DNA from: an uncultured Woeseiaceae bacterium
GTDB taxonomy: Bacteria; Pseudomonadota; Gammaproteobacteria; Steroidobacterales; Woeseiaceae
NCBI GenBank assembly: GCA_902517795.1
Contig: CABYDR010000001.1
Location: forward strand, 2,512 to 66,511
DNA length: 64,000 nt
Direction of reading: 5' to 3'
Shown: positions 16,556-35,683 of the stretch, in pieces
Position numbering within the stretch: position 1 is the stretch's first letter
How the letters are laid out: each line of letters opens with the position of its first letter
Notes under the pieces: model-generated
Told to the model about the DNA's origin: nothing
Databases searched by the model: none
The model's input: the letters and a program-made list of their open reading frames with translations, nothing else
Position numbers and translations under genes: made by a program

Positions 16556-16612
16556 TGATGTCCGAGGCCGGAATCGAACTGGCACGTCCTTCCGAACAAC
16601 GGATTTTAAGTC
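16556..16612 (-). repeat. degenerate copy A of the 3' half of tRNA-Leu(UAA) (att-like remnant)
   Basis: tgatgtccgaggccggaatcgaactggcacgtccttccgaacaacggattttaagtc aligns with 27894-27950 with about 8 mismatches in 57 (by eye). The acceptor part is remodelled into a perfect 8-bp hairpin at 16548-16568. Confidence 0.7.
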
Positions 16613-16716
16613 ATTTACAGAGATAAATAATCTTGACTAATATTTAATTAGGATATTTTTCCAGTATTATATAATATATTTGTTAATAATTTTTATAACT
16701 ATTAGGAAAGAGACAT

Positions 16717-17127: not shown

Positions 17128-17138
17128 TATTATCAATT

Positions 17139-17160
17139 ACTTATCGAGGTGCCCAAGACC
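17139..17160 (-). repeat. short remnant D of the tRNA-Leu 3' end plus flank
   Basis: acttatcgaggtgcccaagacc versus acttatcttggtgcccagggcc at 27887-27908. The 7-nt flank is identical and the tRNA part matches about 11 of 15. The match is short, so this is tentative. Confidence 0.4.
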
Positions 17161-17219
17161 TAACAATATAATTGCTCCTATAAATTAATAATTTAATTCA
17201 AAAAAATGGTGATAAATAA

Positions 17220-18191
17220 GTGCGTATTTTCAAATCAATAATTTTTCTAATTATATTTATATTCAGTATCTCTGGAAATTTCTCGTTAGCTGAAGACTAT
17301 TCAGATTCTGATATTACAAAAGTTGTCATGCTAGGATCAGGAAACCCATTCCCTGATCCAAAGAGATCAGGTCCATCTGTAGCTATTGTTGTTAATGGCG
17401 TTCCTTATTTATTTGATGCTGGTGCGGGAGTTTGGCAGGCAACTGGTGCAGCTACACCAAAATACGGAGGAACAATCAAAGCATTAGAAAGTGGTAATAT
17501 CTCAAAAGTGTTTATCACTCACTTACACTCCGATCATGTTGTTGGTCTACCAAGTTTAATACTTCTTCCCTGGGCACTTGGTCGTGAAGCTCCTCTTGAG
17601 GTATGGGGGCCTCCCGGAACTGAGCATATGATTAAGCATCTGGTAGAGGCATATAGAGAAGATGTAGGGTCAAGAAAATATGGTCTGGGTCAAGACAATG
17701 ATACTGGTTGGCGCGCTATAGGACATAATGTGCCAAAAGCCGGGTTAGTTTATCAAGATGAAAATGTAAAAATTGAAGCTTATCGGACCTTACATACTAC
17801 ATGGCCAATAACTTATGCGTATCGTGTTACCACCCCAGATAAAGTAGTGACCATTTCTGGGGATACAGTCAAGAACAAAGGAATCATTGAGGCAAGCAGA
17901 GGTACTGATATTTTAGTTCATGAAGTAGTTACTATCGAAGGTCAAGATACAGCAGGTTGGGCAAATGGTGGAAAGGAAGATCGTCATAATTTCGGCAATA
18001 TAATTGGCTTCTATCATGCAAATACTAAAGATCTAGCTGAAATTGCAAATGAAGCAAAGCCGAAGCTACTTGTTCTCTATCATGTGCAAAATTATACATC
18101 GCCGCTTCGACCCGAGGTTACAGTAGAAGAGATAAAGAAATATGGATATGACGGAAAAGTAATTCTTTCACAAGATCAAGATATATATTAA
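17220..18191 (+). CDS. secreted MBL-fold metallo-hydrolase
   Basis: Signal peptide and the metallo-beta-lactamase motif THLHSDH. GTG start. Confidence 0.8.
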   Translation: MRIFKSIIFLIIFIFSISGNFSLAEDYSDSDITKVVMLGSGNPFPDPKRSGPSVAIVVNGVPYLFDAGAGVWQATGAATPKYGGTIKALESGNISKVFITHLHSDHVVGLPSLILLPWALGREAPLEVWGPPGTEHMIKHLVEAYREDVGSRKYGLGQDNDTGWRAIGHNVPKAGLVYQDENVKIEAYRTLHTTWPITYAYRVTTPDKVVTISGDTVKNKGIIEASRGTDILVHEVVTIEGQDTAGWANGGKEDRHNFGNIIGFYHANTKDLAEIANEAKPKLLVLYHVQNYTSPLRPEVTVEEIKKYGYDGKVILSQDQDIY

Positions 18192-18225
18192 TACTGCTTT
18201 TTATTTGTTATATAAAATTTTATCG

Positions 18226-18283
18226 TGGTGCCCACGGCTAGACTCGAACCGGCAATATCCATTCGGACAACGGATTTTAAGTC
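18226..18283 (-). repeat. copy B of the 3' half of tRNA-Leu(UAA)
   Basis: tggtgcccacggctagactcgaaccggcaatatccattcggacaacggattttaagtc aligns with 27894-27950 with about 7 differences including 1 indel (by eye). Preceded by ttatc, as at the intact tRNA. Confidence 0.8.
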
Positions 18284-18286
18284 TTA

Positions 18287-19444
18287 CTACAAAATATTTT
18301 CGCTTGGTCTCTTCCGAAGTACTGCCCAAAACATAATTGACACAAAAACCATGCTGGTTGTGTAAGTCAAAAATACGATATGGCCGTAGTTATATACATA
18401 TCCTGCAACAGCAGAAGCTATTAACGAAGATAGTGAATAAATTGCAGGAATAAGAATAACAATTTTCCCATATCTATCTTCAGCGGCAATCGACGCAAAC
18501 ATATAAGCTAGTATAGCAGACCAACATGCTTGGAAAAGTACAGATAATACCCAGAACACAGATTCATTAAATATAGTAATCAAACCCACCATTACCAAAA
18601 TAAATATCAGCCCAATGGCTATGATCATACTATTTCGATTAATTCGGTTATAAACGAGAATAGGAAGAAAAGCGCCCAAGGTACCAATTCCAACAGCTGT
18701 TGATAGTGTTATTGCAATTGATTCAGTTGTGTAACCTGTATTAGTGGCAATGCGTTCATAGAATACCCAAAAGCCATTTAAACCTAAGTTAAAGATGAAT
18801 AAAGCTGCCATCGCCATAATGGCAGGACTTAATTGCTTAACATCAATTGCTTGGTTATTGTGCTGTGCTCCAATATCAATACTTTGTTTCCCAGTCAATG
18901 GAAAGGTGATTAATGCAACCGCAAGCACTACTGCCATGGCAAGCAACATGAATACGCCGGTAAGACCCCAAATAGGTGATATCCAGATAGGTACAACGTA
19001 AAGGCCAATCATCATCAATATAGATTGAAACAATTGAGAAAACCCAAAACCACGATCTGGGTTTTTGGCAGCGCCCAAGCAGGCCATTGAAATACAATAT
19101 AATATTCCAGTACCAATACCGGCTATGCCTAACGCTATTAGTAAAATTGCAAAACTAGTGGTAAATGCGGCAAAAATATAACCAAAAAATGCACATGCGC
19201 CACCAAACAATAATAATAATTTTCTATTGATCCGTCTGACCCAAAAACTGAGTAACAAACTGATAAGCACTTTAGCGCTCATGCCAGGGACCATTAACAT
19301 ACCAAGTTGCTGGTTACTGAAGCCACGATTGTCTGCAGCTGCACCAACAATAACGGGACTGATATTAAAAAAAAGTGCACTTAACGCAATAATTCCAGCA
19401 AAAGTTAGGATAGTCGTAAGTTGATTAACGTCTCTTCTTATCAT
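18287..19444 (-). CDS. MFS-type transporter
   Basis: 385 aa with about 12 hydrophobic helices in a 6+6 arrangement. Confidence 0.7.
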   Translation of the reverse strand: MIRRDVNQLTTILTFAGIIALSALFFNISPVIVGAAADNRGFSNQQLGMLMVPGMSAKVLISLLLSFWVRRINRKLLLLFGGACAFFGYIFAAFTTSFAILLIALGIAGIGTGILYCISMACLGAAKNPDRGFGFSQLFQSILMMIGLYVVPIWISPIWGLTGVFMLLAMAVVLAVALITFPLTGKQSIDIGAQHNNQAIDVKQLSPAIMAMAALFIFNLGLNGFWVFYERIATNTGYTTESIAITLSTAVGIGTLGAFLPILVYNRINRNSMIIAIGLIFILVMVGLITIFNESVFWVLSVLFQACWSAILAYMFASIAAEDRYGKIVILIPAIYSLSSLIASAVAGYVYNYGHIVFLTYTTSMVFVSIMFWAVLRKRPSENIL

Positions 19445-19451
19445 TATTTGG

Positions 19452-21083
19452 TTACCGCCAACACTGATCTAATTCATCCCAGCTATCTTGACGCAGATCT
19501 GTTTTCATATCTTTTAGCTGGTGTTTAGCAACTTTTTCTGATGGGGTATACGGAAAAGACTTAACGTATTCAAAATAACGTGGGATCTTAAACGGTGCGA
19601 GTCGTTGCTGACAATGAATAATAATATCTGCTGGAGATATTTGTTCAATTGTATAGCCTGCCGACAATAACACATAGATTTTTACCTCTTCATCACGCTT
19701 TTTATCGGGTACAGCTATTGCAGCCGCATCCTCGATACCTTGTTTAGAACGAATGGCAGTCTCAACCTCCAAAGCAGAGATATTTTCCATAGACCGACGA
19801 ATCATGTCTTTTAAGCGACCAACGATCGTATGATATCCAAGCTCATCCTTGATAAATAAATCTCCGGTTCTAAACCACCCATCAATAAAGATCTCTTTGT
19901 TAGCTTCGGGTTTCTTATAATAACCTTTAATGATGCCAGCACCTTTTATCCATAGCTCACCAGAGTTTCCTGACTCAACTTCGTTTCCATTATCATCGGC
20001 AATTTTTACCTCTCGAAAAGGTGCAGGTAATCCGCAACTATTTAGAGCTGAGTCAGTGTTAACAGTTTCTGGTACAAATAGTCCTGGACCGATCTCTGTC
20101 ATGCCGTAAGAATCTCTGGTTAAAACTTTAAATCGCTCTTCAACAAGACGTGTCATCTCTGCATTAAGAGCAAATCCTATAAATTTCTTAAGCGATGTAG
20201 CAGAATCTCGCGGTGATGGAGGCGCTTCAAGTAAAGGTGTTGGGAAATAGGCCAATTCGATCTGATGATTATCAATCCAGTCTAAAAATCGACTAACACT
20301 CATGCCTTTAGATACATGAACAGTCATCCCTGAAAATAATCCCATAATAAGCATATATTGATCGTCAATATAGAAAAAAGGAGCATCGGCTAATACTGAT
20401 TTAATGCCCTTGTTTCGAAGAGCAGCTACACAACCTATTATTATCCAGAATTTTTGTGATTGCATGCAGCCCTTTGGAAATCCTGTGGTACCGGACGTAT
20501 ACTGAATATTAAGAAGATCATCAGAATTTACTTGATAGTTATATTGAGCATCTTTGCTTCCGCGCAACAGAATGGAATTCCAGTTATTCTTTGTGTCTTT
20601 ATCAGTGACGATAATGATTGACTCATCGGTTAAAGCTTCTGGTTTTTTGCTCATCGCTTTTAGAGTTGATAAGAATTTATCCTCTATAACTACAAACTCA
20701 GCATCAGAATCATTAAGAACATAGTCTAACTCGGCGCTCGTGTATGCATGATTGACAGGAATCATCACAGCACCGATCACGGCTATTGCCAACCAGGATA
20801 CTGGGAACTCTATTCTATTACTCATAATAACAGCAACATGAGTTCCTTTTTTAATCCCTTTTTGCTGAAATCCATCCGCCAACTTATATACCAACACACG
20901 TAAATCAGCATAAGATATGGATTTGGCTTGTGGTTCCTGCTCAAAGAAGTTAATGGCTAATGCCGTTGGATAATGATCAGCCGCTTGATCAAGTAACTCT
21001 TGTATATTTTCAGGAAAATCAATAGTTTCTTCAATAAACTTTTTTTCTTTAAAGTATTTTTTAGTAGCGACTTCTATCTTCAT
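19452..21083 (-). CDS. acyl-CoA synthetase / AMP-dependent ligase
   Basis: AMP-binding motif YTSGTTGFPKG and the later GWFRTGD motif. Confidence 0.85.
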   Translation of the reverse strand: MKIEVATKKYFKEKKFIEETIDFPENIQELLDQAADHYPTALAINFFEQEPQAKSISYADLRVLVYKLADGFQQKGIKKGTHVAVIMSNRIEFPVSWLAIAVIGAVMIPVNHAYTSAELDYVLNDSDAEFVVIEDKFLSTLKAMSKKPEALTDESIIIVTDKDTKNNWNSILLRGSKDAQYNYQVNSDDLLNIQYTSGTTGFPKGCMQSQKFWIIIGCVAALRNKGIKSVLADAPFFYIDDQYMLIMGLFSGMTVHVSKGMSVSRFLDWIDNHQIELAYFPTPLLEAPPSPRDSATSLKKFIGFALNAEMTRLVEERFKVLTRDSYGMTEIGPGLFVPETVNTDSALNSCGLPAPFREVKIADDNGNEVESGNSGELWIKGAGIIKGYYKKPEANKEIFIDGWFRTGDLFIKDELGYHTIVGRLKDMIRRSMENISALEVETAIRSKQGIEDAAAIAVPDKKRDEEVKIYVLLSAGYTIEQISPADIIIHCQQRLAPFKIPRYFEYVKSFPYTPSEKVAKHQLKDMKTDLRQDSWDELDQCWR

Positions 21084-21086
21084 AGA

Positions 21087-21824
21087 TTATTTACCTTTGA
21101 TATGATCTATGCCTGATTTTGCCTCAGGTTCTTGATGGTACACCTCTAGCTGATGAGCATATAATTTGCGTGTTAAGCTAATGGCTTCTTTTAAACTCAT
21201 CTCTGGGCATTTTTGCAGGCATTCCATTTCTGTCTGAATCGCAATTAATGGATGTAAGGCGATCATATTTGCAATCTCTAATGCTCTTTCGAAAACTTTA
21301 TCATTCGAAACTACCTCATTAATTAATTGGTATTGCAATGCTTGGTCTGCGGTAATCTTCTCACCTGTGAGTGCAATCCAATTTGCCCACACACGGGGAA
21401 TTTGAAGAGATAAACGTGATGTACCACTGGCTCCTGCCATCCCATAAGCGATCTCAGGTAAGCCAAATCTTGCGCCTTTACCAGCTACTCTTATATCGGT
21501 AAGTAATGAAACATAAATCAAACCTTCGCCAATGCACCAACTATTTATCGCACCAATAATAGGTTTGTTTCGAGGCAATGAAAATATCATTTCTGTGATA
21601 TCTTCACCATCTGGATAAGCATCCCCTTCATTGAGATCATCTCCGGCACTAAAACACTTGCCTTCACTACCTTTCAGAATTCCGACTTTAATATTATCGT
21701 CATTCAAAAAGTCATTTAAATGAGAATATAATTGCTTATGCATAGCAAACGTCAAGACGTTAACTTTACCATTATCAATTGTAAATATTCCGATGTGTCC
21801 CTGTTTTTCATAAGTAATAGTCAT
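21087..21824 (-). CDS. enoyl-CoA hydratase/isomerase (crotonase) family protein
   Basis: Crotonase-fold pattern (FSAGDDL, GGAINSWCIGEG-type oxyanion segment, GLPEIAYGM). Confidence 0.85.
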   Translation of the reverse strand: MTITYEKQGHIGIFTIDNGKVNVLTFAMHKQLYSHLNDFLNDDNIKVGILKGSEGKCFSAGDDLNEGDAYPDGEDITEMIFSLPRNKPIIGAINSWCIGEGLIYVSLLTDIRVAGKGARFGLPEIAYGMAGASGTSRLSLQIPRVWANWIALTGEKITADQALQYQLINEVVSNDKVFERALEIANMIALHPLIAIQTEMECLQKCPEMSLKEAISLTRKLYAHQLEVYHQEPEAKSGIDHIKGK

Positions 21825-21855
21825 TAATGTTACCTAAAATTTATTTTAATAAGTG

Positions 21856-21885
21856 ATGGTTAAGTATGGTTAAGCATGGATTAAG
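21856..21885. repeat. three tandem 10-bp direct repeats (atggttaagt / atggttaagc / atggattaag)
   Basis: Read directly from the sequence. Starts 32 nt upstream of the enoyl-CoA hydratase start codon and ends 38 nt before tRNA fragment C. Confidence 0.6.
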
Positions 21886-21923
21886 AGTATAGTTATAGCT
21901 CTATTATTACCAATAACTTATCG

Positions 21924-21979
21924 TGGCGCCCGATGCCGGACTCGAACCGGCACGTCCTTTCAGACAACGGATTTTAAGA
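21924..21979 (-). repeat. copy C of the 3' half of tRNA-Leu(UAA)
   Basis: tggcgcccgatgccggactcgaaccggcacgtcctttcagacaacggattttaaga aligns with 27894-27949 with about 5 mismatches in 56 (by eye). Preceded by acttatc, as at the intact tRNA. Confidence 0.85.
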
Positions 21980-22118
21980 CAGTAGCCATAAAATAAGTAT
22001 TTAGACATATCTCACTATCTCTATCATTTCAAAGGAAATTATTTTATGTATAAAGCACCTATGCCTGTTATATAGTTATTGAGAATGTCTAAATATTAAT
22101 TAAAATAAGAATCTGATA

Positions 22119-23306
22119 ATGATTAAACTAATAATACTCACAATAGTAATATTTTTTGTGCAAATTAATACAACTCTTTCTCAAGAAGTTAGATGTGATA
22201 GAGAAATGAATATCACTTATTACAAAAATCCCAAAATATTACTAAATGAATTTTCATCATTTCCTGAACGTAAGTCACAAGTGGCTATAAATGCTTCAAA
22301 TAAAGCTGAAAAAATAGTAGATGAATACTGGAATCATATTGGACCCGAAAAACACCTACATGAACTAAATACTGTTTTGACTAAATACAGCATTATTACT
22401 GAAAATTTTGAAAAAAATGGAGAGTTTGAGTTTTTATTCAATAATAATGGCAAATTACAAGCCACTAATTTCGCAAACTGTAAAACAGAAATCCTTTATT
22501 GGGAATATCAATCACAACCATATAATGGAACATTCAGTATATACATAGGCTCCAAGGATACTAATGAATACCTCATAAGATTTGGGATTCAAGGCTCACA
22601 TTCACAAAATCATTACAGGCTCAACTATTATAAAAGAGGAAGTCAAAATTGCTACAACTCGATGAATCCAATCTGTCATAAACATCTAACTGAATTAAGA
22701 ATATTGGGATACGCAGATCTAGAATCAAATTTAAAATTTGATGAATTAAAAAATATTGTTAAAACCGAATTGGAAACAGCTAAAAAAATAACCGAAGAAG
22801 CATATGCTAAGCAATTAGCTCAAGAAAAAGCTGATAGAGATCGGGCTCAGAATGCAAAAGAAGCTAGAGTAAAGGCGGAAAGAGAGAGAATTGAAGCAGA
22901 AAAGGCGAAAAGATTGAGACTTATAAAAGAAAAAGAAGAATTTGATGGCTCTCCTTATGGTCAACTTTATAATTCATATTCATCATATTTGATGATTAGT
23001 GATTTATATGATGCTAGAAAGGAATTTGCAACTCCATATATTACACAAACAAAAATGTCTGAAGTAAAGAAGAAGATGAGAGAAATAGAGAACAAAATGA
23101 TATCTGAAAAAAAACTTGATACAGATATGATTTGGGCTAATGCTGAAAAAAGTTACCAAACTGAATTCTCAACTTCAATGGGTCTCATAAAATCTTCCGG
23201 CATCTATTCAAATGAAGCAAATTCAATGGCAAAAATACAATTAATAACGTTCGATGCAATTCATAAAGATGTTGTTGGATACAAATCAATTGAAAAGGAT
23301 TTTTAA
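22119..23306 (+). CDS. hypothetical secreted protein with central E/R/K-rich helix (module protein A)
   Basis: Signal peptide MIKLIILTIVIFFVQINTTLSQ. Charged segment AQEKADRDRAQNAKEARVKAERERIEAEKAKRLRLIKEKEE. No catalytic motif recognised. Confidence 0.6.
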   Translation: MIKLIILTIVIFFVQINTTLSQEVRCDREMNITYYKNPKILLNEFSSFPERKSQVAINASNKAEKIVDEYWNHIGPEKHLHELNTVLTKYSIITENFEKNGEFEFLFNNNGKLQATNFANCKTEILYWEYQSQPYNGTFSIYIGSKDTNEYLIRFGIQGSHSQNHYRLNYYKRGSQNCYNSMNPICHKHLTELRILGYADLESNLKFDELKNIVKTELETAKKITEEAYAKQLAQEKADRDRAQNAKEARVKAERERIEAEKAKRLRLIKEKEEFDGSPYGQLYNSYSSYLMISDLYDARKEFATPYITQTKMSEVKKKMREIENKMISEKKLDTDMIWANAEKSYQTEFSTSMGLIKSSGIYSNEANSMAKIQLITFDAIHKDVVGYKSIEKDF

Positions 23307-23371
23307 TAACTGATTTTTCTCCTCTAATGCTATTTACTTTCAAACGTATTGATTTTATTTTTCTAAAGTGG

Positions 23372-23480
23372 TTATAGCGATGCCCGGGTGCCAACACAGT
23401 TATGCCACTTTATGGATGTACCAGAAGGACAAGTTGTTTGAGCTTGAGCATTGATTGAGAATAAGAATGCTGTAATGAGG
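23372..23480 (-). pseudogene. 5'-truncated remnant of a MORN-repeat protein gene
   Basis: 23388-23480 aligns with 16389-16481 (signal peptide and N-terminus of the MORN gene) with about 11 mismatches in 93 (by eye). The start codon is missing and there is an in-frame TAA at 23372-23374. Confidence 0.7.
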
Positions 23481-23483
23481 GGT

Positions 23484-24104
23484 TCACTTAATAAGCTCTT
23501 TTGCAATGAAAGAAACTCTTAATACACCACTTTCTCTTTGAAATTGCTCGCCACCTATAGAGGCAATATAAGTCTTCCAAGCTGCATTTATACCATCAAA
23601 GAAAATAACATTTGACCTCCCTGCTTGGTTAATCTCCATCATTTCTCCAGCAATATTGACCGAAAGCAATTTTTTTATATAAAGCTCTACTGATTCCTTA
23701 CCACCAAGAAATATAACTCTATTAGAAGTAAAAATTAATTCGCCAAAATCAATACTCGTTAGAGCCTGTTTTTGTTTTCTTGAAAACTCGCCTATACGAT
23801 AACTAAGACCATCCATGACTCTGAGAGAAATACCTTGATATATTCCCTTTTGTTTAATATTTTTAAATTCTAATAATTGGACATCATCTAATTTCAAAAT
23901 AATTCTTTCTTGATCTTGGAGCCTTATTGACGAGTCTTGAATTGCAGCTTCCAAGACTAGATTTTCCAGCGCTTTTGCTTCCTCCTTGGAAATTCTTGTG
24001 ACGGGAATCTCTTTATTGATTTTAAATTCTGGTTTTTTGATAAGCTTAATTACAAAGAGAATTAATACCATAAACATCAATATTACAAAGATATCTAAAA
24101 TCAT
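23484..24104 (-). CDS. hypothetical membrane-anchored protein (module protein B)
   Basis: Strong SD (aaggagg, 5 nt before the ATG) and an N-terminal TM. The C-terminal beta-rich part (GELIFTSNRVIFLGG..MEINQAGRSNVIFF) is faintly reminiscent of bacterial PH-like domains. Confidence 0.6.
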   Translation of the reverse strand: MILDIFVILMFMVLILFVIKLIKKPEFKINKEIPVTRISKEEAKALENLVLEAAIQDSSIRLQDQERIILKLDDVQLLEFKNIKQKGIYQGISLRVMDGLSYRIGEFSRKQKQALTSIDFGELIFTSNRVIFLGGKESVELYIKKLLSVNIAGEMMEINQAGRSNVIFFDGINAAWKTYIASIGGEQFQRESGVLRVSFIAKELIK

Positions 24105-24146
24105 ATTATCCTCCTTGTAAGGTTAAATATACTGCCTATATTTTAT

Positions 24147-24515
24147 CTAGAGATTATCAAATAAATCGTCATTCTTATCCACCTTGGTAGACTCGTCGAT
24201 TAGCTTCGATGATGTGTCTTTAGTTGCTACTTTTTTCTCTGTAACTTCCTCTTTCTGAATATCAGGGCTCTCCTGTGTTTCAGTGTTATCTTTTTTCTTT
24301 ACAGGTGCTTGAGAGGATTTTGATATTTTTCTATAAATTAGCCGAATGATAACGAAAGGAACGTAAATCATTAAGAACACCATTATTATGGCTCCAATTA
24401 TTGCCAATGGTATTTCTAGAGGAGTCCCTTTTAAAAATCGGCCCGCGATGAAAGCTATTGCAAATAAAGCACCGAAAGATACATATAATATTTTCTTAGT
24501 AGACCAATTTTTCAT
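24147..24515 (-). CDS. hypothetical 2-TM protein with disordered Lys/Glu/Thr tail ending NDDLFDNL (module protein C)
   Basis: Its ATG overlaps the stop of the upstream gene (TAATG). Two hydrophobic helices are followed by an about 55-aa low-complexity tail. Confidence 0.6.
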   Translation of the reverse strand: MKNWSTKKILYVSFGALFAIAFIAGRFLKGTPLEIPLAIIGAIIMVFLMIYVPFVIIRLIYRKISKSSQAPVKKKDNTETQESPDIQKEEVTEKKVATKDTSSKLIDESTKVDKNDDLFDNL

Positions 24516-24955
24516 TATATATCATCGAATAAATTATCAACTTTTTTTTCATCTGCTGCTAAAGCTTTCTCTGTTTGAGTTTTTTTCGTTGCTGCTTCTG
24601 ATTTTTTAGTATTTTGTTTATTTACTTTTTTAGTTGGTGTTGGGGTTTCATCTACCATTATCATCATTAAAGCAATCACAAACATGACCCATCCAAGAAT
24701 GGTTAAATCTACGTTTGGCAGATCACCATGCACAATTTCCCCAAGAGACCAAATATTTAAAGCTGAAACGCCCCATCCGTCAAGAAGATAGGCGCTGATT
24801 AATCGCCATGCACCCCATACCAAAGCTAATAAAAATACTAAACCTAATAGAGCTTCTCTACCGTGTTTTCTTCCATACAAACTAGAAACCAATACTAATA
24901 ATGCAAGACTAAAAGGCCAATTTTCTTGAGCCCACTGTAAGGTTTCAGTTAGCAT
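24515..24955 (-). CDS. hypothetical 3-TM protein with Lys-rich tail ending VDNLFDDI (module protein D)
   Basis: The ORF track starts at 24967. I prefer the ATG at 24953-24955 because GGAGG (24961-24965) lies 5 nt upstream. Overlaps the end of the upstream gene by 11 nt. Confidence 0.6.
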   Translation of the reverse strand: MLTETLQWAQENWPFSLALLVLVSSLYGRKHGREALLGLVFLLALVWGAWRLISAYLLDGWGVSALNIWSLGEIVHGDLPNVDLTILGWVMFVIALMMIMVDETPTPTKKVNKQNTKKSEAATKKTQTEKALAADEKKVDNLFDDI

Positions 24956-26324
24956 ATTTACCTCCAAATTCGTTGAATAATTTATTGAGATTTTTTGAAT
25001 CTTTTGAGAGTTTTAAGCCTTCATTTTTAACTCTTTCCATTGCTTTTAACACTTTTTCGTCTTCATAATAACTTAACGCTTTCTCAAGATTGGCTAACCT
25101 CATTTCTAGGTTTTTATAGAGTGCCCCATAAAGCTTTTTATATCTACCAAGTGTCTTTTCATAATAACCATTTCCTTCTAAAGTTTGATTAACTTTTGGG
25201 TTATCATGTATATCAGCGTATGAATTCTCTACTCTATTCTTCAGTACTTTAGCATTACTCTCAGTTGATAGGATTATCGTAATTAAGCCTGGAGTTTTTT
25301 TCCAAATTACACTGCCAAGCGCTTGAGCCTCTTTAGCAAATTTCCCTTTACCAAACCAAGATGATTTGTGATTCTTATCTAAAGTTTCAAGATCTGAATT
25401 CATTTTATCAATCTGAGTTTTCATCGTTTTGCCAGTCTTTACTGCTTTGTCTATGGCTTTATCAAATAAAGCCATGACTTCTTTACACCCATCATCAAGT
25501 TCTTTTTTTTCTTTTGCTCTTTGCTTAGCTTCTTCTTCTTTCTTTTTTATATCAGCAGCAATCTCTGGGACAAGGGGAGCAACATTAGCCTCAATATATT
25601 TCGAGATTACCTCAGCATTTACTGGATCTTCAAAACCAGAAAAATCATCAAAACTAAGATTTTTGGGAAGCGAATCTTTTATAGACACTTCACACTTGCT
25701 TTTAAAAATTTTTATCATTGAATGATTAGCGATCTTAGAAGATGTTGCTACTTTCTTTAATTCACTCTCGTACAACAGATCAAAAGTGTCAAGAATGTGA
25801 ACCCCGACAGCTAATTTAAAAAGATTCTCTTCGAGAAAAGGAACGGTGACTTTTTTAAACTGTGAGCTTGTTGTAAGACCATTCTCATTGTTGTAAACAC
25901 GGGCTACTACTCTTAGATCGACCCCAAATAACTTCAAGGGAACGTCATGTTCTAAGAATCTTCCTTTTAAGATAAGAAGTTCTTTTTCATATTTTTCTTG
26001 TTCTTTTTTTTCTTGGGCAAGAAGCTTCTGACGTTCTTTTTCATCTGCAATTGATTTTCTTTCAGCTGCTTTTACTGCTGCTGCTGATGCTTTTTCACTT
26101 TCTCTTACCCTTTTGGCGTGTTCTCTAGCAGATCGTTTCCTAGATCGCTCAGCTTCTCTTTCTCGCCTCTTTCGAGCTGTTTCAGCCGCTCTTGCTTCTT
26201 TCCTTCGAGCAGTTTCAGCTGCTCTCTTTCGTTTTCGCGCCTGCACAGCACTTTTTTTTACCGCATTACTCGCAGCGGCTCCCCAATCCACTTTGCCTTT
26301 TTTCCAAACTTTTTTATATGCCAT
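24945..26324 (-). CDS. hypothetical soluble protein with extremely basic Arg/Lys/Ala/Glu N-terminal region (module protein E)
   Basis: 459 aa with no signal peptide or TM. Residues about 25-115 are R/K/E/A-rich with an internal AAETAR repeat. The remainder is predicted helical. No catalytic motif recognised. Confidence 0.6.
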   Translation of the reverse strand: MAYKKVWKKGKVDWGAAASNAVKKSAVQARKRKRAAETARRKEARAAETARKRREREAERSRKRSAREHAKRVRESEKASAAAVKAAERKSIADEKERQKLLAQEKKEQEKYEKELLILKGRFLEHDVPLKLFGVDLRVVARVYNNENGLTTSSQFKKVTVPFLEENLFKLAVGVHILDTFDLLYESELKKVATSSKIANHSMIKIFKSKCEVSIKDSLPKNLSFDDFSGFEDPVNAEVISKYIEANVAPLVPEIAADIKKKEEEAKQRAKEKKELDDGCKEVMALFDKAIDKAVKTGKTMKTQIDKMNSDLETLDKNHKSSWFGKGKFAKEAQALGSVIWKKTPGLITIILSTESNAKVLKNRVENSYADIHDNPKVNQTLEGNGYYEKTLGRYKKLYGALYKNLEMRLANLEKALSYYEDEKVLKAMERVKNEGLKLSKDSKNLNKLFNEFGGKYAN

Positions 26325-26403
26325 AATTAACTGTTAGTATTGATTGAATATATTTTAATAATATAATTATTTTATTATCATAATTTATCATAATAATAAA
26401 ATC

Positions 26404-27663
26404 ATGAATAAAACGTTATTGCAATTAATCAGACCCCACCTGTTGTTATTGACTCTATGTTTAAGCGCCTATGTATCTGCTGAATCATATGACACAAATG
26501 AATATATTGGTTTAGATAATGCAATCTGCAAAAACGCAAGCAAACATCTAACTCTAGAAACCTCAGGCTTCTTTGAATACATTGGTGCTGGTGAATCAAA
26601 AATATTTGAATGCGGGAAGCATAGTGACGAACCATGCAGAAAAGATTCTGAGTTAATTTGTAGAAATACACATAAAAAATACATTCTAGATAGATCTGAA
26701 GCTCTTCTAATTGGCGCTAATAAATATACTGATAACACAAAAAAAATAAAAAACCGAAAAAAATTAGAGCGAGCAATCAAAAAGCAAACCAAATTAAATG
26801 AAAATTGGAAAAATTCAAACGATATTCTTTCACTGATCGGCTCTTTAGAGAGGGAAGTTATGCTTACTGCCTCTTTATTGCCCTCCGAGACTTATTCTCA
26901 AATTAACAATGAGCTTAAAGTTCAACATGATCAAATTCGACAGGAAATCCTTGAGCAACAGAGAATCGCAAGAGAAGCAAGCTTGAAAAAACAAAGGCAA
27001 AAAGCAGCTAAACAAGCAATAGAAACTCGTCAACAACGGGAGATTGATGAGCAGATACAAATCATGATGTATCTTTTAGGGATACTTGCGATTGTAGTTT
27101 TAGCTGGAACACTTACAAACAAATGGATATTTTTTGACAGTGAACAAGATTTTTTTATGACCCTAGGTTTATTAGCTTCTATTACGACCTGTTTCTTTAT
27201 GATTGAAGAATATGATTACAAACAAAACGTTACTGTTTCAGGAGATCTATTTTATTGGTCTATAACCAGTGTTTCTGCCCTGCTTTCAATATGGTTAATA
27301 TTTAAAACATACATGACTTCAATAAAAGGAAATGGCTTCTTTGTAGGAACTTTTATTTATTTATTTAAAGTGGCATTTAGCATTATTCTGGTAATGTTCA
27401 TTGTTGCTAAAATTGCTGACATTACAAGCAATAAAGATGGAAGGACAAGGGCAAATCGTGCTCCAGCTTTGGCAATTCTTGCTTTAATTGCGATTTTTTG
27501 GAAACCAATAAAATGGCTTCTTATAAATGGTGATAGAGTGAGAGAAAAAAAAGCAGCTAATAGAATGAAAACTCAAGTTAAAACCGCACCGCCTGTGAGT
27601 GAAACTAAAGCTTCTAATCATAAAAACCTAGACGCCAGCGATGATATGTTTAGCGATATTTAA
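26404..27663 (+). CDS. hypothetical polytopic membrane protein with Cys-containing N-terminal exodomain, charged helix, about 5 TM and a tail ending SDDMFSDI (module protein F)
   Basis: Signal peptide, five Cys in the mature exodomain, charged segment EQQRIAREASLKKQRQKAAKQAIETRQQRE, then hydrophobic helices. Divergent from protein E across a 79-bp AT-rich spacer. Confidence 0.6.
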   Translation: MNKTLLQLIRPHLLLLTLCLSAYVSAESYDTNEYIGLDNAICKNASKHLTLETSGFFEYIGAGESKIFECGKHSDEPCRKDSELICRNTHKKYILDRSEALLIGANKYTDNTKKIKNRKKLERAIKKQTKLNENWKNSNDILSLIGSLEREVMLTASLLPSETYSQINNELKVQHDQIRQEILEQQRIAREASLKKQRQKAAKQAIETRQQREIDEQIQIMMYLLGILAIVVLAGTLTNKWIFFDSEQDFFMTLGLLASITTCFFMIEEYDYKQNVTVSGDLFYWSITSVSALLSIWLIFKTYMTSIKGNGFFVGTFIYLFKVAFSIILVMFIVAKIADITSNKDGRTRANRAPALAILALIAIFWKPIKWLLINGDRVREKKAANRMKTQVKTAPPVSETKASNHKNLDASDDMFSDI

Positions 27664-27893
27664 TTTCCATTGATTTGAAGGTATTTTTGTAACTTGACTA
27701 ATGAATTTTCGGTTTTGATGTCATTAGAAATAATCTTACGTGAATTAATAAAATAACATAAGTATTATGGAATATTCATAAAAACACTAAAAAGTTGCCT
27801 AAATTTTGCCTAAAATCACAAAAAAACCCCTTCCCTAATCTTCCAAAGAAAATCAACAAAGAGGTTTAATTTAATCAAATCAACTACTTATCT

Positions 27894-27980
27894 TGGTGCC
27901 CAGGGCCGGACTCGAACCGGCACGTCCTTTCGGACAACGGATTTTAAGTCCGTAGCGTCTACCAATTCCGCCACCCGGGC
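27894..27980 (-). tRNA. leuZ: tRNA-Leu (anticodon UAA)
   Basis: The reverse complement GCCCGGGTGGCGGAATTGGTAGACGCTACGGACTTAAAATCCGT...GGTTCGAGTCCGGCCCTGGGCACCA has a 7-bp acceptor stem, a long variable arm, a CTTAAAA anticodon loop and an encoded CCA. Confidence 0.9.
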
Positions 27981-27994: not shown

Positions 27995-28068
27995 TGGAGG
28001 CTAGGGTCGGAATCGAACCGGCGTCCGCGGCTTTGCAGGCCGCTGCATAACCACTCTGCCACCTAGCC
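27995..28068 (-). tRNA. cysT: tRNA-Cys (anticodon GCA)
   Basis: The reverse complement is GGCTAGGTGGCAGAGTGGTTATGCAGCGGCCTGCAAAGCCGCGGACGCCGGTTCGATTCCGACCCTAGCCTCCA. It folds as a cloverleaf with a CTGCAAA anticodon loop. Confidence 0.9.
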
Positions 28069-30390: not shown

Positions 30391-31248
30391 TTATTTACAA
30401 TCATCATTTCTTATACCCCAGGGAAGCTTTGTTTTACAAAGTATGGCTTTATCAATATTGATATTGAGTATTTTTGCAAATCTTAGATTTGCATACCGAA
30501 GATCAGCATTAAAGAAATTTGTGTTTATAAGTTTAGCACCAGTAAAATCAGTACCCGATAAATCCGCACTTGAAAAATTGGTATTAGATAAGTCTGCATT
30601 CATAAAATTAGATTGTCTTAAATTTGATTTGATGAACTGAGCATCAACTAATTTGGTGTCTACAAATACTGATCCATGAGCATCTGAATGACTAAGATCT
30701 CCTTCTTCAATATTTGCTTCCGAAAAATTAGACATAGATAAGACCGATGAACGCATCACAATATTTTTCATTCCTGCTTTAACGAGTGATGATCTGCTAA
30801 TATTTATATTATTTGCCCAGGCATTATTTAACTCAGCTTCATCAAGAATTGTGTTTTTAAGACTTGTATTTCTTATGCTTGAATTGGATAAATTCGAATA
30901 ACTTAGATCCGCATCCATCAAATCAGAATCGTCCAGCTTTGCTGATTGAAATGAAGCATATCTTAAATTAGTGTTTTTAAAATTTGCGGCTGTTATTGTT
31001 GAATTATTCAGTGACGCATTAATCAAAGTTGAATCAGAAAAATTAGTGTTGGCTAAATTCGCATTTTCTAATTCAGCATTATTCAGATTTATATCGCTTA
31101 AATTAGTATTCGAAAGATTGCATCCGTTACAGATATTTGATTCAAGAAAATTATCAAGCTCTATGCTTCTATCTTGAGCAAAAGCTAACTTGATTGGAAA
31201 TATCAAAAAAATGTAAAGCTGGATTTTTTTATTTAGCATTAAAATCAA
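30391..31248 (-). CDS. secreted pentapeptide-repeat protein
   Basis: Signal peptide followed by more than 35 consecutive A(D/N)LXX-type pentapeptides (NLSNTNLSDINLNNAELENANLANTNFSDS...). Confidence 0.85.
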   Translation of the reverse strand: MILMLNKKIQLYIFLIFPIKLAFAQDRSIELDNFLESNICNGCNLSNTNLSDINLNNAELENANLANTNFSDSTLINASLNNSTITAANFKNTNLRYASFQSAKLDDSDLMDADLSYSNLSNSSIRNTSLKNTILDEAELNNAWANNINISRSSLVKAGMKNIVMRSSVLSMSNFSEANIEEGDLSHSDAHGSVFVDTKLVDAQFIKSNLRQSNFMNADLSNTNFSSADLSGTDFTGAKLINTNFFNADLRYANLRFAKILNINIDKAILCKTKLPWGIRNDDCK

Positions 31249-31336: not shown

Positions 31337-32140
31337 CTAATGATTTTTTTTCAATGAAGTTTTCATATAGTCTACAAGAATCATATGCGGCACAGTTAGC
31401 GCTGCCAGGCCAATAAAAGTTATCTTTAGCAAATCATCTGAAATCATTTTGTTATCGCTAACATAATAAACAGTAGAAAAAATTAGCATAAATGTCACCA
31501 TGCTATATACCAGAGTTTCTTTTATTGCTTGATGCTTCTCTTTTTTACTTAATATTCTTAGAACTTTATTCATATGCCTAGGGCCATGTATCAAACAAAA
31601 GTAGATTGAGAAAGAGACTAGAGGTGGCAACACATAAATCAAAATTAATAAAATAATTAATTGAACATACCTTTTTACATAGGATTTTCTTCTAATAAAA
31701 TTAACTGTGTATAAAAAGAACACTAAAAACCAAGCGTAAAATAGATAAGTGATTATTGAGATTAGAAAGGTTGCTGTGTCAGCACCTAGCAAAAAAAATA
31801 TATCTGTTGCTTCTTCAGTATGCGACCATGGGATCATAACTGGCACCAAGCCAGCGTGTGAAAAAAAGGATATCCTGTTTATTTTTTCATCATCATCGTA
31901 TTCACTATGCGCGAAGTGAAGACCGGAAATCAACAAAAAAATTATAAGTGAAATCAGGGGCTGATATAACCAAAATACAATAACAAATAGAGAAATGACG
32001 ATGTAGGAAAAATGAAAGACAAAAAAATAATTTGCTGTATTAGGCCATCCCTTCATTCGCGCAATCGTGTTATCTAATGCGCCGTGCGGTATACCGAGAA
32101 GAATAATGCATAACAGTGCTACCCAGTTGTATACCTCCAT
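31337..32140 (-). CDS. blh: Brp/Blh-family beta-carotene 15,15'-dioxygenase (retinal synthesis)
   Basis: Polytopic membrane protein with the N-terminal GIPHGALD motif and conserved His residues. Lies directly after crtY in the proteorhodopsin cluster. Confidence 0.8.
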   Translation of the reverse strand: MEVYNWVALLCIILLGIPHGALDNTIARMKGWPNTANYFFVFHFSYIVISLFVIVFWLYQPLISLIIFLLISGLHFAHSEYDDDEKINRISFFSHAGLVPVMIPWSHTEEATDIFFLLGADTATFLISIITYLFYAWFLVFFLYTVNFIRRKSYVKRYVQLIILLILIYVLPPLVSFSIYFCLIHGPRHMNKVLRILSKKEKHQAIKETLVYSMVTFMLIFSTVYYVSDNKMISDDLLKITFIGLAALTVPHMILVDYMKTSLKKNH

Positions 32141-32145
32141 ATAAT

Positions 32146-35642: not shown

Positions 35643-35683
35643 GCTGTTTACCCAAAGCTTGATATTGAGGTTTGATGGATTGT

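What the first reader, a model, noticed from the sequence alone, without database searches (positions are those of the whole stretch)
22119..27663. Six-gene module of unrecognisable membrane and charged-helix proteins as cargo of the tRNA-proximal cassette
- Location: the cassette immediately next to intact tRNA-Leu contains only proteins I cannot assign to any family.
- Members: A is secreted (395 aa). B has an N-terminal TM plus a beta-rich domain. C has 2 TM and D has 3 TM. E is soluble (459 aa) with an extremely basic N-terminus. F has a signal peptide, a Cys-containing exodomain and about 5 TM.
- Operon structure: E-D-C-B form a tight operon. E and D overlap by 11 nt, with GGAGG embedded in the last codons of E. 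D and C share TAATG. B has an AAGGAGG Shine-Dalgarno.
- Flanks: F is divergent from E across a 79-bp AT-rich spacer, and A flanks the other side.
- Shared building blocks: a tethered C-terminal peptide in C, D and F, and E/R/K-rich helices in A, E and F. This argues that the genes work together.
- What is absent: no nuclease, ATPase, kinase, protease or phage structural motif is visible. If this is a defence or envelope system it would be of an undescribed type.
- Topology: the positive-inside rule places all three tails, protein E and the B domain in the cytoplasm. A and the F exodomain would be periplasmic, which is compatible with a trans-membrane assembly.
Basis: partly seen in the sequence, partly recalled or inferred. 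Interest (0 to 1): 0.8.

Follow-up and report, generated by a model that had tools for sequence, protein, structure and literature searches.

The report
Membrane-protein cassette sharing one docking tail
Next to a tRNA-Leu gene, an uncultured marine bacterium carries a small mobile-looking cassette of five unknown proteins, three of which end in the same seven-residue tail (DDLFDDI), apparently a portable tag that ties unrelated membrane proteins into one complex of unknown function.

Summary
The six ORFs and the operon details are exactly as described. Five genes (F divergent from E-D-C-B, 23484-27663) form a real module that recurs in about 40 marine metagenome contigs. Gene A occurs only in this window and is not part of it.

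The module is the first unit in a tandem array of integrase-less cassettes behind tRNA-Leu(UAA). Each unit ends in a partial copy of the tRNA (21911-21986, 18226-18283, 16566-16612). Other contigs show the same tRNA-derived borders, a different cassette order, and deletions.

None of the proteins matches Pfam, NCBIfam, PADLOC or PHROGs. The families are tiny: 19-52 clusters among 5.8 billion.
- **B:** a membrane anchor plus a remote PH-like (GLUE/GRAM-type) domain.
- **E:** a confidently modelled all-helical protein (net charge +30) with no structural match.

The key feature is the C-terminal peptide KK-x-DDLFDDI-COOH. It sits on C, D and F, and elsewhere on a TM2-domain protein and a soluble protein. 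It is near-invariant while the linkers drift, and its DNA has been copied between unrelated genes.

My inference is a tail-and-hub membrane assembly, with E or B as the tail receptor. The physiological role is unproven; phage exclusion and ion homeostasis are the candidates. It is novel but narrow in distribution.

The parts
27894..27980 (-). Intact tRNA-Leu(UAA). It is the anchor of the cassette array, and cassettes follow its 3' end towards lower coordinates.
   Evidence: ARAGORN; Rfam tRNA 58.6 bits.
27664..27893 (.). Spacer between the F stop codon and the tRNA 3' end. Positions 27789-27893 are the tRNA's downstream flank; in L025 the same sequence follows the distal partial tRNA copy instead.
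   Evidence: blastn L025 4838-4998 = window 27951-27789; sequences.
26404..27663 (+). F. It has a signal peptide, a periplasmic domain with 4 invariant Cys, a long helical stalk, 5 TM segments and a cytoplasmic linker plus tail. Together with B it forms the ancient core pair.
   Evidence: ORF; 19 homologue clusters only; invariant C42, C70, C78, C86; TM prediction; an F-like gene divergent from B even at 33-50% B identity.
27640..27660 (+). Tail of F: DDMFSDI-COOH.
26325..26403 (.). 79-bp AT-rich divergent intergenic region between E and F, with promoter-like hexamers on both strands.
   Evidence: consensus matches only.
24945..26324 (-). E. It is a soluble, all-helical protein of 459 aa with net charge +30. 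A conserved N-terminal peptide is followed by a long basic helix (residues 14-125) whose length varies between strains, and then by helical bundles. It is a candidate tail receptor or scaffold.
   Evidence: AF2 mean pLDDT 86; no fold match in PDB or BFVD; 32 homologue clusters; alignment with length-variable K/R/E-rich stretches; charge.
24515..24967 (-). D. It is a 3-TM protein (N-out, C-in by the positive-inside rule) that is translationally coupled to E, with a charged linker and a tail.
   Evidence: E and D are adjacent and overlapping in every locus that has E, including the 28%-identity locus L017.
24518..24538 (-). Tail of D: DNLFDDI-COOH.
24147..24515 (-). C. It is a 2-TM protein with a 65-residue charged C-terminal region and a tail. 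It is an optional member, present in the window, L018, L019, L008, L031, L032, L035, L038 and L040.
24150..24170 (-). Tail of C: DDLFDNL-COOH.
23484..24104 (-). B. It has an N-terminal TM anchor and a cytoplasmic PH-like (GLUE/GRAM-type) beta-domain at about residues 55-175. It was the search bait for most related loci and is present in every locus whose sequence reaches that end of the module. It is the best conserved member.
   Evidence: 52 homologue clusters, none under 56% identity; 80 invariant columns; a profile search finds 1,096 remote relatives, 15 of 48 hitting Pfam Vps36_ESCRT-II and 10 of 48 CheF-arch; best PDB match is the Vps36 GLUE domain 2dx5, E=0.05.
22119..23306 (+). A. It is a secreted-looking 395-aa protein and NOT part of the conserved module. 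It lies in a separate low-GC segment (21987-23440) between B and the first partial tRNA copy.
   Evidence: No homologue in the other loci surveyed; cassettes in L019, L008, L025 and L029 end about 30 nt after B; GC 29.8% against 33.5%; no similarity to F or to L001's 335-aa protein.
21911..21986 (-). Partial tRNA-Leu copy (from the anticodon loop to the 3' end, plus 13 nt of flank). It is the att-like distal border of the first cassette segment.
   Evidence: Direct repeat D2, 87% identity over 76 nt; blastn-short 97.7% over tRNA positions 33-76; alignment.
18226..18283 (-). Second partial tRNA-Leu copy. It closes cassette 2, which holds enoyl-CoA hydratase, acyl-CoA synthetase and an MFS transporter (18284-21910).
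   Evidence: Pfam on the cargo genes.
16566..16612 (-). Third partial tRNA-Leu copy. It closes cassette 3, which holds a metallo-beta-lactamase-fold gene (17220-18191).

Best explanation
Coordinates 23441-27880 hold a five-gene module, F divergent from E-D-C-B. It is the tRNA-proximal unit of a tandem array of integrase-less cassettes behind tRNA-Leu(UAA). Each unit is closed by a copy of the last ~55 nt of the tRNA.

The module encodes an accessory inner-membrane assembly. It is confined to one clade of uncultured pelagic Gammaproteobacteria; the nearest MAGs are labelled Woeseiaceae.

The module is built from two old gene pairs.
- **F and B.** F has a 4-Cys periplasmic domain on a helical stalk and a 5-TM bundle. 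B has one TM anchor and a cytoplasmic PH-like domain.
- **E and D.** E is a soluble, very basic, all-helical protein. D is a 3-TM protein translationally coupled to E.
- **C** is an extra 2-TM protein.

C, D and F end in a drifting charged linker followed by a near-invariant peptide, KK-x-D-D-L-F-D-D-I-COOH. In other strains a TM2-domain protein and a soluble 172-aa protein end the same way.

Shown:
- The module is conserved.
- The cassette has att-like borders.
- The tail is confined to the module's own genes and their immediate neighbours, is under strong constraint, and is copied between genes.

Inferred:
- The tail is a portable docking tag. It plugs otherwise unrelated proteins into one module-encoded cytoplasmic receptor, so that small membrane proteins are gathered around the F/B trans-envelope pair.
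- My estimates for the receptor are E about 45%, B's PH-like domain about 25%, and something else about 30%.

The physiological role is not shown. My leaning is a strain-variable envelope function: phage exclusion about 25%, ion or membrane-energetics accessory about 15%, otherwise unknown.
For: Conserved module:
- The order F<- ->E-D-(C)-B recurs in about 40 contigs from Tara, GOS, Arctic, Fram Strait and other marine samples.
- The bare pair F<- ->B persists down to 33-50% B identity.
- E and D stay adjacent even at 28% E identity.

Cassette:
- There is one intact tRNA-Leu plus 3 direct partial copies in the window.
- The same partial copies flank F..B in L019, L025, L008, L029 and L030.
- The cassette order is swapped in L019.
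- A genome with the same flanks has lost B-E and half of F (L041 against L008).
- No recombinase was found among the cassette genes or the 11 neighbouring genes tested.
- This pattern matches the tRNA-island logic described for tycheposons, with partial tRNAs and successive integrations pushing older units inward (bioRxiv 10.1101/2020.12.28.424599).

Tail:
- 41 distinct tail-bearing C-termini in 5 unrelated protein families show positions -7 to -1 as D39/D35/L35/F35/D33/D32/I34 of 41, while positions -16 to -11 vary.
- In all the DNA held, covering the 64-kb window and the related loci, every tail found lies on a module gene or an immediate neighbour.
- In L033 the last 75 nt of D and of the unrelated Sol172 gene are 73/75 identical. 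Sol172 and TM2 share 64/75 in L023.
- In L036 the Sol172 domain has no tail and is instead fused to TM segments, which fits the tail acting as a membrane-complex tether.

Receptor candidates:
- Every lineage with E has tails, and four lineages with bare F-B pairs have none.
- E is +30 in net charge. D's only sizeable cytoplasmic part is its linker plus tail.
- B was the search bait for most related loci and is present in every locus whose sequence reaches that end of the module. Its domain family weakly matches the Vps36 GLUE (PH-like) and CheF models.
- PH domains are known to bind acidic disordered peptides, for example TFIIH p62 (PMC10345426, PMC5727438; abstracts listed).
Against: - No binding has been shown or modelled.
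- B's PH-like assignment rests on sub-threshold matches: Pfam best E 5e-5 in relatives only, and PDB E 0.05.
- The association between E and tails is phylogenetically non-independent. It has exceptions: L030 has a tail on F but no E, and L022/L024 carry a tail-bearing scar ORF.
- About half of the F orthologues lack the tail, so it is dispensable for F.
- No integrase or excised circle was seen, so mobility is inferred from repeats and rearrangements only.
- In another clade the module sits at one stable chromosomal site between proteorhodopsin and xseA. That argues for vertical inheritance there.
- Nothing identifies the physiological role.
Confidence: 0.5

Rival explanations
1. The module is a new membrane-acting anti-phage (abortive-infection or superinfection-exclusion) system. 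F and B would sense envelope perturbation. The small holin-like proteins C and D (2-3 TM plus a charged C-terminus) would permeabilise the membrane, held in check or clustered through their tails.
For: - The module is cargo of a strain-variable tRNA-anchored cassette and shows presence/absence between near-identical backgrounds.
- A type I R-M system lies 3 kb away in L001/L020, and a PvuRts1I-like restriction enzyme lies nearby in L007.
- Accessory genes turn over quickly.
- C and D have holin-like size and topology.
- A remote relative of B's domain, fused to TerB, sits next to the CI-like repressor in Bordetella phages, a classic exclusion-gene position.
Against: - There is no PADLOC hit for any of the six proteins.
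- There is no PHROG lysis match below E 0.05.
- No nuclease, NTPase or protease is present.
- B is under strong purifying selection (70-98% identity), not diversifying.
- The families are confined to one clade, and B is absent from the phage, plasmid and IMG/VR collections. That is unlike typical horizontally spread defence systems.
- Most neighbourhoods are housekeeping genes.
Confidence: 0.22
2. The module is an accessory of membrane energetics or ion flux. The tail system would organise or regulate a voltage-gated-type ion channel and partners near proteorhodopsin.
For: - In the L004/L010/L033/L040 clade, an Ion_trans channel gene and a TM2(tail) gene lie on one strand directly beside B. 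A Sol172(tail) gene follows them in L004, L010 and L033 but is absent in L040. Proteorhodopsin lies immediately upstream in L010 and L040.
- In L026 proteorhodopsin is one tRNA away from B.
- In the window, proteorhodopsin lies 8 kb away.
Against: - The channel, TM2 and Sol172 genes are absent from the 64-kb window and from the tRNA-Leu cassettes.
- The proteorhodopsin adjacency is essentially one syntenic locus in one clade, so it counts as a single observation.
- The channel itself carries no tail.
Confidence: 0.13
3. The tail is not read by a module protein. Instead a housekeeping machine reads it, such as a protease or adaptor (as a C-terminal degron), a chaperone, or a PDZ or TPR protein, and the genes merely share a regulatory tag.
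For: - Acidic-hydrophobic C-termini are typical ligands of general hubs (own knowledge: SSB-Ct DDDIPF; EEVD with TPR domains).
- The tail persists in L030 without E.
- F works with or without the tail.
Against: - In all the DNA held, covering the window and the related loci, no ORF with the tail was found other than module genes and their immediate neighbours.
- Bare F-B lineages lack tails altogether.
- Tail DNA is exchanged only among module neighbours.
Confidence: 0.12
4. The genes are unrelated hypothetical genes that merely hitch-hike together in a variable island, so there is no functional system.
For: None of the proteins has a known function. Islands do accumulate orphan genes.
Against: - Gene order and overlaps are conserved across about 40 contigs and down to 28-33% identity.
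- E and D are translationally coupled.
- The shared tail is under strong constraint.
Confidence: 0.03

Closest known systems
tRNA-anchored flexible genomic islands and tycheposon-type cargo elements of marine bacteria (bioRxiv 10.1101/2020.12.28.424599)
   Same: An intact tRNA is followed by tandem units, each bounded by a partial tRNA copy. The order of units differs between strains. Units are gained and lost between close relatives, and the cargo is often of unknown function.
   Different: No tyrosine recombinase or replication module was found in the cassettes or among the neighbouring genes tested. The units are only 1.6-5.9 kb long. The host is a gammaproteobacterium, not Prochlorococcus. 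This comparison explains the context, not the cargo.
PH-domain recruitment of acidic disordered peptides (TFIIH p62/Tfb1 PH domain with XPC, TFIIE, p53; PMC10345426, PMC5727438)
   Same: A PH-fold domain could read a short peptide that pairs an acidic run with Phe and aliphatic residues on a disordered tether. That is the logic proposed for B and the DDLFDDI tail.
   Different: The known case is eukaryotic and nuclear. There is no sequence relationship. Binding is not shown here, and E may be the receptor instead.
Vps36/EAP45 GLUE domain, GRAM-like PH domains and bacterial PH domains (Pfam PF11605; PHb, PMC2817789)
   Same: Relatives of B's domain hit PF11605 (15 of 48, best E 5e-5). The family profile's best PDB hit is GLUE 2dx5, over the G-x-L-x-L-T-x-x-R-L-I-F strand pair. 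The predicted strand and helix order is compatible with a PH fold.
   Different: B itself matches no Pfam model at E<1. All matches are below curated thresholds. B is membrane-anchored and shows no ubiquitin or lipid link.
SSB C-terminal tail hub (acidic linker ending in DDDIPF-COOH; own knowledge)
   Same: It is a bacterial precedent for a disordered linker that ends in an acidic-hydrophobic C-terminal peptide used purely as a docking site.
   Different: In SSB, one protein's tail binds many partners. Here many unrelated proteins carry one tail, presumably for one partner. The setting is the membrane rather than DNA, and there is no sequence relationship.
Phage holins (class I with 3 TM, class II with 2 TM)
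   Same: D (3 TM, N-out/C-in) and C (2 TM, N-in/C-in) are small and carry charged hydrophilic C-termini.
   Different: There is no PHROG or Pfam holin match. No endolysin or spanin is present, and there is no phage context. The C-terminal regions are much longer and end in a conserved acidic peptide.

Membership tests
PH-like / GLUE-GRAM superfold (for B) | Significant sequence match to a curated PH-like model (e.g. Pfam PF11605 Vps36_ESCRT-II) | tested here: inconclusive
   B alone has no Pfam hit at E<1. 15 of 48 remote relatives hit PF11605 (best E 5e-5) and 10 of 48 hit CheF-arch. The family profile against PDB gives Vps36 GLUE 2dx5 at E=0.05.
PH-like / GLUE-GRAM superfold (for B) | Seven-stranded beta-sandwich capped by a C-terminal helix | tested here: inconclusive
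   The AF2 model has 7 strands (67-169) followed by C-terminal helices, but its mean pLDDT is 43, so the fold is not established.
Known anti-phage defence systems (PADLOC-DB v2) | At least one protein matching a defence-system model | tested here: not met
   0 families for all six proteins at E<=1.
Phage holin / lysis cassette (for C and D) | Match to a holin family and an adjacent endolysin or spanin | tested here: not met
   The best PHROG lysis hit is E 0.057, to an Rz-like spanin. No lysin-like domain is present in the cassette.
Phage holin / lysis cassette (for C and D) | Small protein with 2-3 TM segments and a charged cytoplasmic C-terminus | tested here: met
   Hydropathy and K/R distribution. 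This feature is not specific.
tRNA-integrating mobile element (tycheposon or genomic-island type) | Element flanked by direct repeats made of the tRNA 3' part (att sites) | tested here: met
   The window holds copies at 21911-21986, 18226-18283 and 16566-16612 plus the intact tRNA. The same copies flank F..B in L019, L025, L008, L029 and L030.
tRNA-integrating mobile element (tycheposon or genomic-island type) | Own tyrosine or serine recombinase (and a replication module) | tested here: not met
   No recombinase domain is found in A-F, in cassettes 2 and 3, or in the neighbouring genes tested. The rest of the genome is not available.
tRNA-integrating mobile element (tycheposon or genomic-island type) | Evidence of excision or integration (empty site, circle, different order) | tested here: inconclusive
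   The cassette order differs between the window and L019, and there is a partial deletion in L041. No clean empty site or circular junction was recovered. L025 has no terminal overlap.
ER/K single alpha-helix (for the N-terminal region of E) | Long isolated helix with balanced E and K/R content | tested here: not met
   The helix at residues 14-125 is predicted with pLDDT about 60-89. However, residues 21-125 hold 37 K/R against 19 D/E, a net charge of +18. It is a basic helix, not a balanced SAH.
PspA/IM30/ESCRT-III or other known helical membrane scaffolds (for E) | Sequence or fold match | tested here: not met
   There is no Pfam or NCBIfam hit above noise. PDB sequence profile best E is 0.033 on a low-complexity stretch. 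Foldseek best E is 0.56 against PDB and 0.04 against BFVD, with TM scores of 0.2 or less.
TM2 domain (for C and D) | Pfam PF05154 match | tested here: not met
   There is no hit for C or D. The tail-bearing neighbour in L004 does match, at E 1.5e-10.

The most novel reading that the evidence does not exclude
This would be a previously undescribed bacterial 'hub-and-tail' membrane system. A portable C-terminal short linear motif (KKxDDLFDDI) is copied between unrelated genes by recombination. A module-encoded receptor reads it, either the basic helical protein E or the membrane-anchored PH-like protein B. That lets a cell plug new small membrane proteins, a TM2 protein or a soluble factor into a trans-envelope sensor (F/B). 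The whole system rides on integrase-less tRNA-Leu cassettes and serves as a new kind of phage-exclusion or envelope-control device.
Probability: 0.3. Interest if true: 0.8.

Novelty: categorically new. Interest (0 to 1): 0.6.

Why it matters
Short linear motifs that wire proteins into complexes are a hallmark of eukaryotic cell biology. They are rarely recognised in bacteria beyond a few hubs such as the SSB tail, the FtsZ C-terminal peptide and clamp-binding motifs.

Here one heptapeptide is shared by up to five unrelated proteins of one gene cluster. It is conserved while the linkers drift, and it has been physically copied from gene to gene. If it is a docking tag, this gives a simple and testable example of how bacteria evolve modular membrane complexes by 'tagging' new subunits.

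The finding also adds:
- a first functional foothold for a family of about 1,100 unannotated PH-like domains;
- a new all-helical fold (E);
- an example outside cyanobacteria of tandem, integrase-less, tRNA-bounded cassettes as carriers of flexible genes in streamlined marine bacteria.

Its reach is limited by the narrow taxonomic distribution and the lack of any cultured host.

Tried and rejected
- **Family searches.** Pfam, NCBIfam, PADLOC and PHROGs on A-F gave only noise: ARGLU, DUF4834, MscL, a Pol III tau low-complexity stretch and similar.
- **AF2 of B.** With a 20-sequence alignment the model was unusable (pLDDT 43), so I ran no fold search on it.
- **Foldseek of the good E model.** Against PDB and BFVD there were no hits below E 0.04, and all were generic helical bundles such as syntaxin, SMC and tape-measure proteins. 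PDB sequence profiles for E and B gave nothing significant.
- **B in other collections.** Searches in GTDB species-representative genomes, IMG/VR, phage and plasmid collections found nothing. The first two are pattern-limited scans.
- **Source contig.** An exact look-up of E found no record.
- **Is A a paralogue?** I compared A with F's exodomain and with L001's 335-aa protein. BLASTP E was 1.2 or higher, so I rejected this.
- **Literature.** A search for the tail sequence returned one irrelevant hit.
- **Tail as a eukaryote-directed motif.** I considered LIR/Atg8-type F-x-x-I/L and FFAT or clathrin-box-like motifs. I rejected these because the host is a free-living proteorhodopsin-bearing planktonic lineage, V and L variants replace F, and the tail occurs only on cluster genes.
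- **Partial tRNA copies of other tRNAs.** I looked for copies of the other module-adjacent tRNAs (Val, Ser, Gly). None were found; only tRNA-Leu leaves copies.
- **L025 as a circular excised cassette.** There is no terminal overlap.
- **ncRNAs.** An Rfam scan of 16-29 kb found only the two tRNAs.

Full report
**Observation**

The six ORFs are at the stated coordinates. tRNA-Leu(taa) lies at 27894-27980 and tRNA-Cys at 27995-28068, just beyond F. The operon details are all correct:
- E and D overlap by 11 nt, with GGAGG upstream.
- D and C share TAATG.
- B is preceded by AAGGAGG.
- The E-F divergent spacer is 79 bp and AT-rich.

B has one N-terminal anchor. C has 2 TM, D has 2 strong plus 1 weak TM, and F has 5 TM after a 219-residue N-terminal region with a signal peptide. 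E has none and a net charge of +30.

None of the six proteins matches Pfam, PADLOC, NCBIfam or PHROGs above noise.

**Organism**

The flanking acyl-CoA synthetase is 83-89% identical to marine MAGs labelled Woeseiaceae or Gammaproteobacteria, from Antarctic and Fram Strait samples.

The window is 35.6% GC and carries a carotenoid and proteorhodopsin cluster at 31-36 kb. So the host is a free-living pelagic gammaproteobacterium known only from metagenomes.

**How wide the families are**

| Protein | Clusters found among 5.8 billion | Lowest identity |
|---|---|---|
| E | 32 | 28% |
| B | 52 | 56% |
| F | 19 | not stated |

All come from marine metagenomes, and all are unnamed or 'hypothetical'. 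B was not found in GTDB species representatives, IMG/VR, phage or plasmid collections.

**Conserved anatomy**

I surveyed 38 related contigs by BLAST and added a few more look-ups.
- B, the search bait for most loci, is present wherever the sequence reaches that end of the module, and is the best conserved member (80 invariant columns).
- An F-type gene is always divergent from B. This holds even where B is only 33-50% identical (L039, L044). There F may be reduced to exodomain, stalk and one TM.
- In many lineages E-D, and sometimes C, lie between F and B. E and D are always adjacent and overlapping, including in L017 where E is 28% identical.
- Bare F<->B pairs occur in L026/27, L029/30, L036, L039 and L044.
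- A has no homologue in any of the loci surveyed.

The module is therefore two old pairs, F/B and E/D, plus the optional C. A is a bystander.

**Cassette context**

The window holds one intact tRNA-Leu and three direct partial copies, at 21911-21986, 18226-18283 and 16566-16612. Each copy runs from the anticodon loop to the 3' end. They cut the region into tandem units:

| Unit | Coordinates | Content |
|---|---|---|
| First unit | 21987-27880 | F..B plus the A segment |
| Cassette 2 | 18284-21910 | Enoyl-CoA hydratase, acyl-CoA synthetase, MFS transporter |
| Cassette 3 | 16613-18225 | Metallo-beta-lactamase-fold gene |

The same tRNA-Leu-derived sequences bound F..B elsewhere:
- L025 reads tRNA part, F..B, partial copy, and then the sequence that follows the intact tRNA in the window.
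- L019 and L008 have a partial copy about 30 nt after B, followed by tRNA-Ser.
- L029 and L030 show minimal F-B cassettes.

In L019 the MFS cassette lies on the F side of the module, so the order of the units is swapped. L041, an NCBI MAG with the same flanks as L008, has lost B-E and the first 200 codons of F.

Right after B, the window shares 45 nt with its 96%-identical relative L018 and then diverges into the 29.8%-GC A segment.

No recombinase was found among A-F or the 11 neighbouring genes tested.

This is the signature described for tRNA-anchored islands and tycheposons: partial tRNAs, with later integrations pushing older units inward (bioRxiv 10.1101/2020.12.28.424599). The difference here is that there is no resident integrase.

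In a second clade the module sits at one fixed site between proteorhodopsin and snoaL-eamA-xseA, with tRNA-Val on one side or the other. It is therefore not mobile everywhere.

**The tail**

C, D and F end in DDLFDNL, DNLFDDI and DDMFSDI. These are the only genuine ORFs in 64 kb that end this way. The three tails are encoded with different codons.

Across the related loci there are 41 distinct tail-bearing C-termini. They belong to five unrelated families (F, D, C, a TM2-domain protein, a soluble 172-aa protein) plus one scar ORF.
- Positions -7 to -1 are D39/D35/L35/F35/D33/D32/I34 of 41.
- K-K is common at positions -10 and -9.
- Positions further upstream vary.
- Every tail found lies on a module gene or an immediate neighbour.

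About half of the F orthologues stop just before the linker and lack the tail.

Tail DNA moves between genes:
- In L033 the last 75 nt of D and of Sol172 are 73/75 identical, although the two genes are unrelated and on opposite strands.
- The same Sol172 gene ends differently in L004.
- Sol172 and TM2 share 64/75 in L023.
- F and TM2 share 51/75 in L004.

In L036 the Sol172 domain has no tail and is fused to TM segments instead. That is what one expects if the tail's job is to tether a protein to a membrane complex.

**The proteins**

*B.* An exhaustive profile search finds 1,096 relatives of residues ~55-175. They occur in many architectures, including TM plus domain, zinc ribbon plus domain, and TPR fusions.
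- 15 of 48 sampled relatives hit Pfam Vps36_ESCRT-II (the GLUE split-PH domain), and 10 hit CheF-arch.
- The family profile's best PDB hit is GLUE 2dx5 at E=0.05.
- The monomer model was poor (pLDDT 43), but it shows 7 strands followed by helices.

I call B PH-like with moderate confidence.

*E.* The model is confident (pLDDT 86). It shows a conserved N-terminal peptide, one long basic helix (residues 14-125, net +18) whose length varies between strains, a small helical domain with the invariant motif FKKVTxPxL, and a long helical bundle. It has no match in PDB or BFVD.

*F.* Four invariant Cys lie in the N-terminal domain, followed by a ~100-residue helical region, 5 TM segments and a strongly conserved NNKDGRTRANRAP loop.

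**Mechanism**

Shown: a conserved, partly translationally coupled module; a constrained tail confined to the module's genes and immediate neighbours; and exchange of tail DNA between genes.

Inferred: the tail is a docking peptide for one module-encoded cytoplasmic receptor.

Arguments for E as the receptor:
- All E-containing lineages have tails, and the four bare F-B lineages have none.
- E is soluble and very basic.
- E is coupled to D, whose only sizeable cytoplasmic part is its linker plus tail.

Arguments for B as the receptor:
- It is present in every locus that reaches that end of the module, and it is the most conserved member.
- It is PH-like. PH domains do read acidic-hydrophobic disordered peptides, as in TFIIH p62 (PMC10345426, PMC5727438; abstracts listed).
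- In L030 the tail on F survives without E.

The exceptions look like recent deletions. The 67-codon tail ORF of L022/L024 aligns at its 5' end to the start of E and at its 3' end to the tail of C.

My estimates are E about 45%, B about 25%, and another reader about 30%.

**Function**

Nothing identifies the function.

The defence reading has some support:
- The cargo is variable, with presence/absence between close strains.
- R-M genes lie nearby in two contexts.
- C and D have holin-like topology.
- A remote relative of the B domain, fused to TerB, sits next to a phage repressor gene.

Against the defence reading:
- There are no PADLOC hits and no enzymatic domains.
- B is strongly conserved.
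- The taxonomic range is narrow.
- Most neighbours are housekeeping genes.

An ion or energetics role is suggested only in one clade. There an Ion_trans channel gene and a TM2(tail) gene lie on one strand next to B, joined by Sol172(tail) in L004, L010 and L033, with proteorhodopsin just upstream in L010 and L040.

**Verdict**

The system matches nothing known.

It is interesting mainly for the portable C-terminal motif and the integrase-less tRNA cassettes. It is limited by its narrow distribution and unproven function.

Noticed in passing
window 16566-27980: A tandem array of three integrase-less units lies behind tRNA-Leu(UAA). Each unit is closed by a partial tRNA copy that starts at the anticodon loop. 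Units 2 and 3 carry metabolic genes: enoyl-CoA hydratase, acyl-CoA synthetase and an MFS transporter in one, and a metallo-beta-lactamase-fold gene in the other. In L019 the MFS unit lies on the other side of the module.
   Followed up: yes
window 31337-36808: A carotenoid and retinal gene cluster (lycopene cyclase at 32146-33324) sits with a proteorhodopsin-like gene (35735-36436) and tRNA-Gly(gcc). Proteorhodopsin lies directly beside the module in other clades (L026, L010, L040).
   Followed up: partly
L033 380-454 and 1168-1242; L023; L004: Tail-coding DNA has been copied between unrelated neighbouring genes. D and Sol172 are 73/75 nt identical in inverted orientation around B. Such inverted repeats could drive the inversions seen between L004 (E, D, B+, Sol-) and L007 (E, Sol+, B-).
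   Followed up: partly
L025 3340-4197; L036 2325-3857; L001 6140-6589: A further accessory domain recurs in module neighbours: a Cys4 ribbon of the form CxxC...NKDGSxDxR...CxxC. In L036 it is fused to the Sol172 domain and TM segments. It was judged by eye only.
   Followed up: no
L022 427-627; L024 1343-1543: A 67-codon ORF ending in NIFDDI lies between F and B. It looks like a deletion scar that joins the 5' end of E to the tail end of C.
   Followed up: partly
L041 9909-10714 (GCA_902596175.1) against L008: The chromosomal flanks are the same (tRNA-Ser, BKACE, HpaB). In L041, however, B, C, D, E and F codons 1-200 are deleted, leaving a 3' fragment of F.
   Followed up: yes
L042 3656-4345 (Bordetella phage vB_BaM-IFTN1): A remote member of B's PH-like domain family is annotated as a TerB-family protein. 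It sits two genes downstream of the CI-like repressor, a position typical of lysogen-expressed exclusion genes.
   Followed up: no
E orthologues (alignment A2, columns 50-190 and 330-420): E length varies from 453 to 555 aa. The variation comes from gain and loss of K/R/E/A-rich repeat units in two helical stretches, as if the helices act as adjustable spacers.
   Followed up: no
L008, L009, L010, L018, L019, L025, L030 contig ends: Metagenome contigs very often break at the borders of the module. This is consistent with strain-level variation or repeats (partial tRNAs) at those points.
   Followed up: no
window 15824-16495 and 30391-31248: A MORN-repeat protein (Pfam E 7e-50) lies just beyond the last partial tRNA copy. 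A secreted protein at 30391-31248 looks by eye like a pentapeptide-repeat protein.
   Followed up: no
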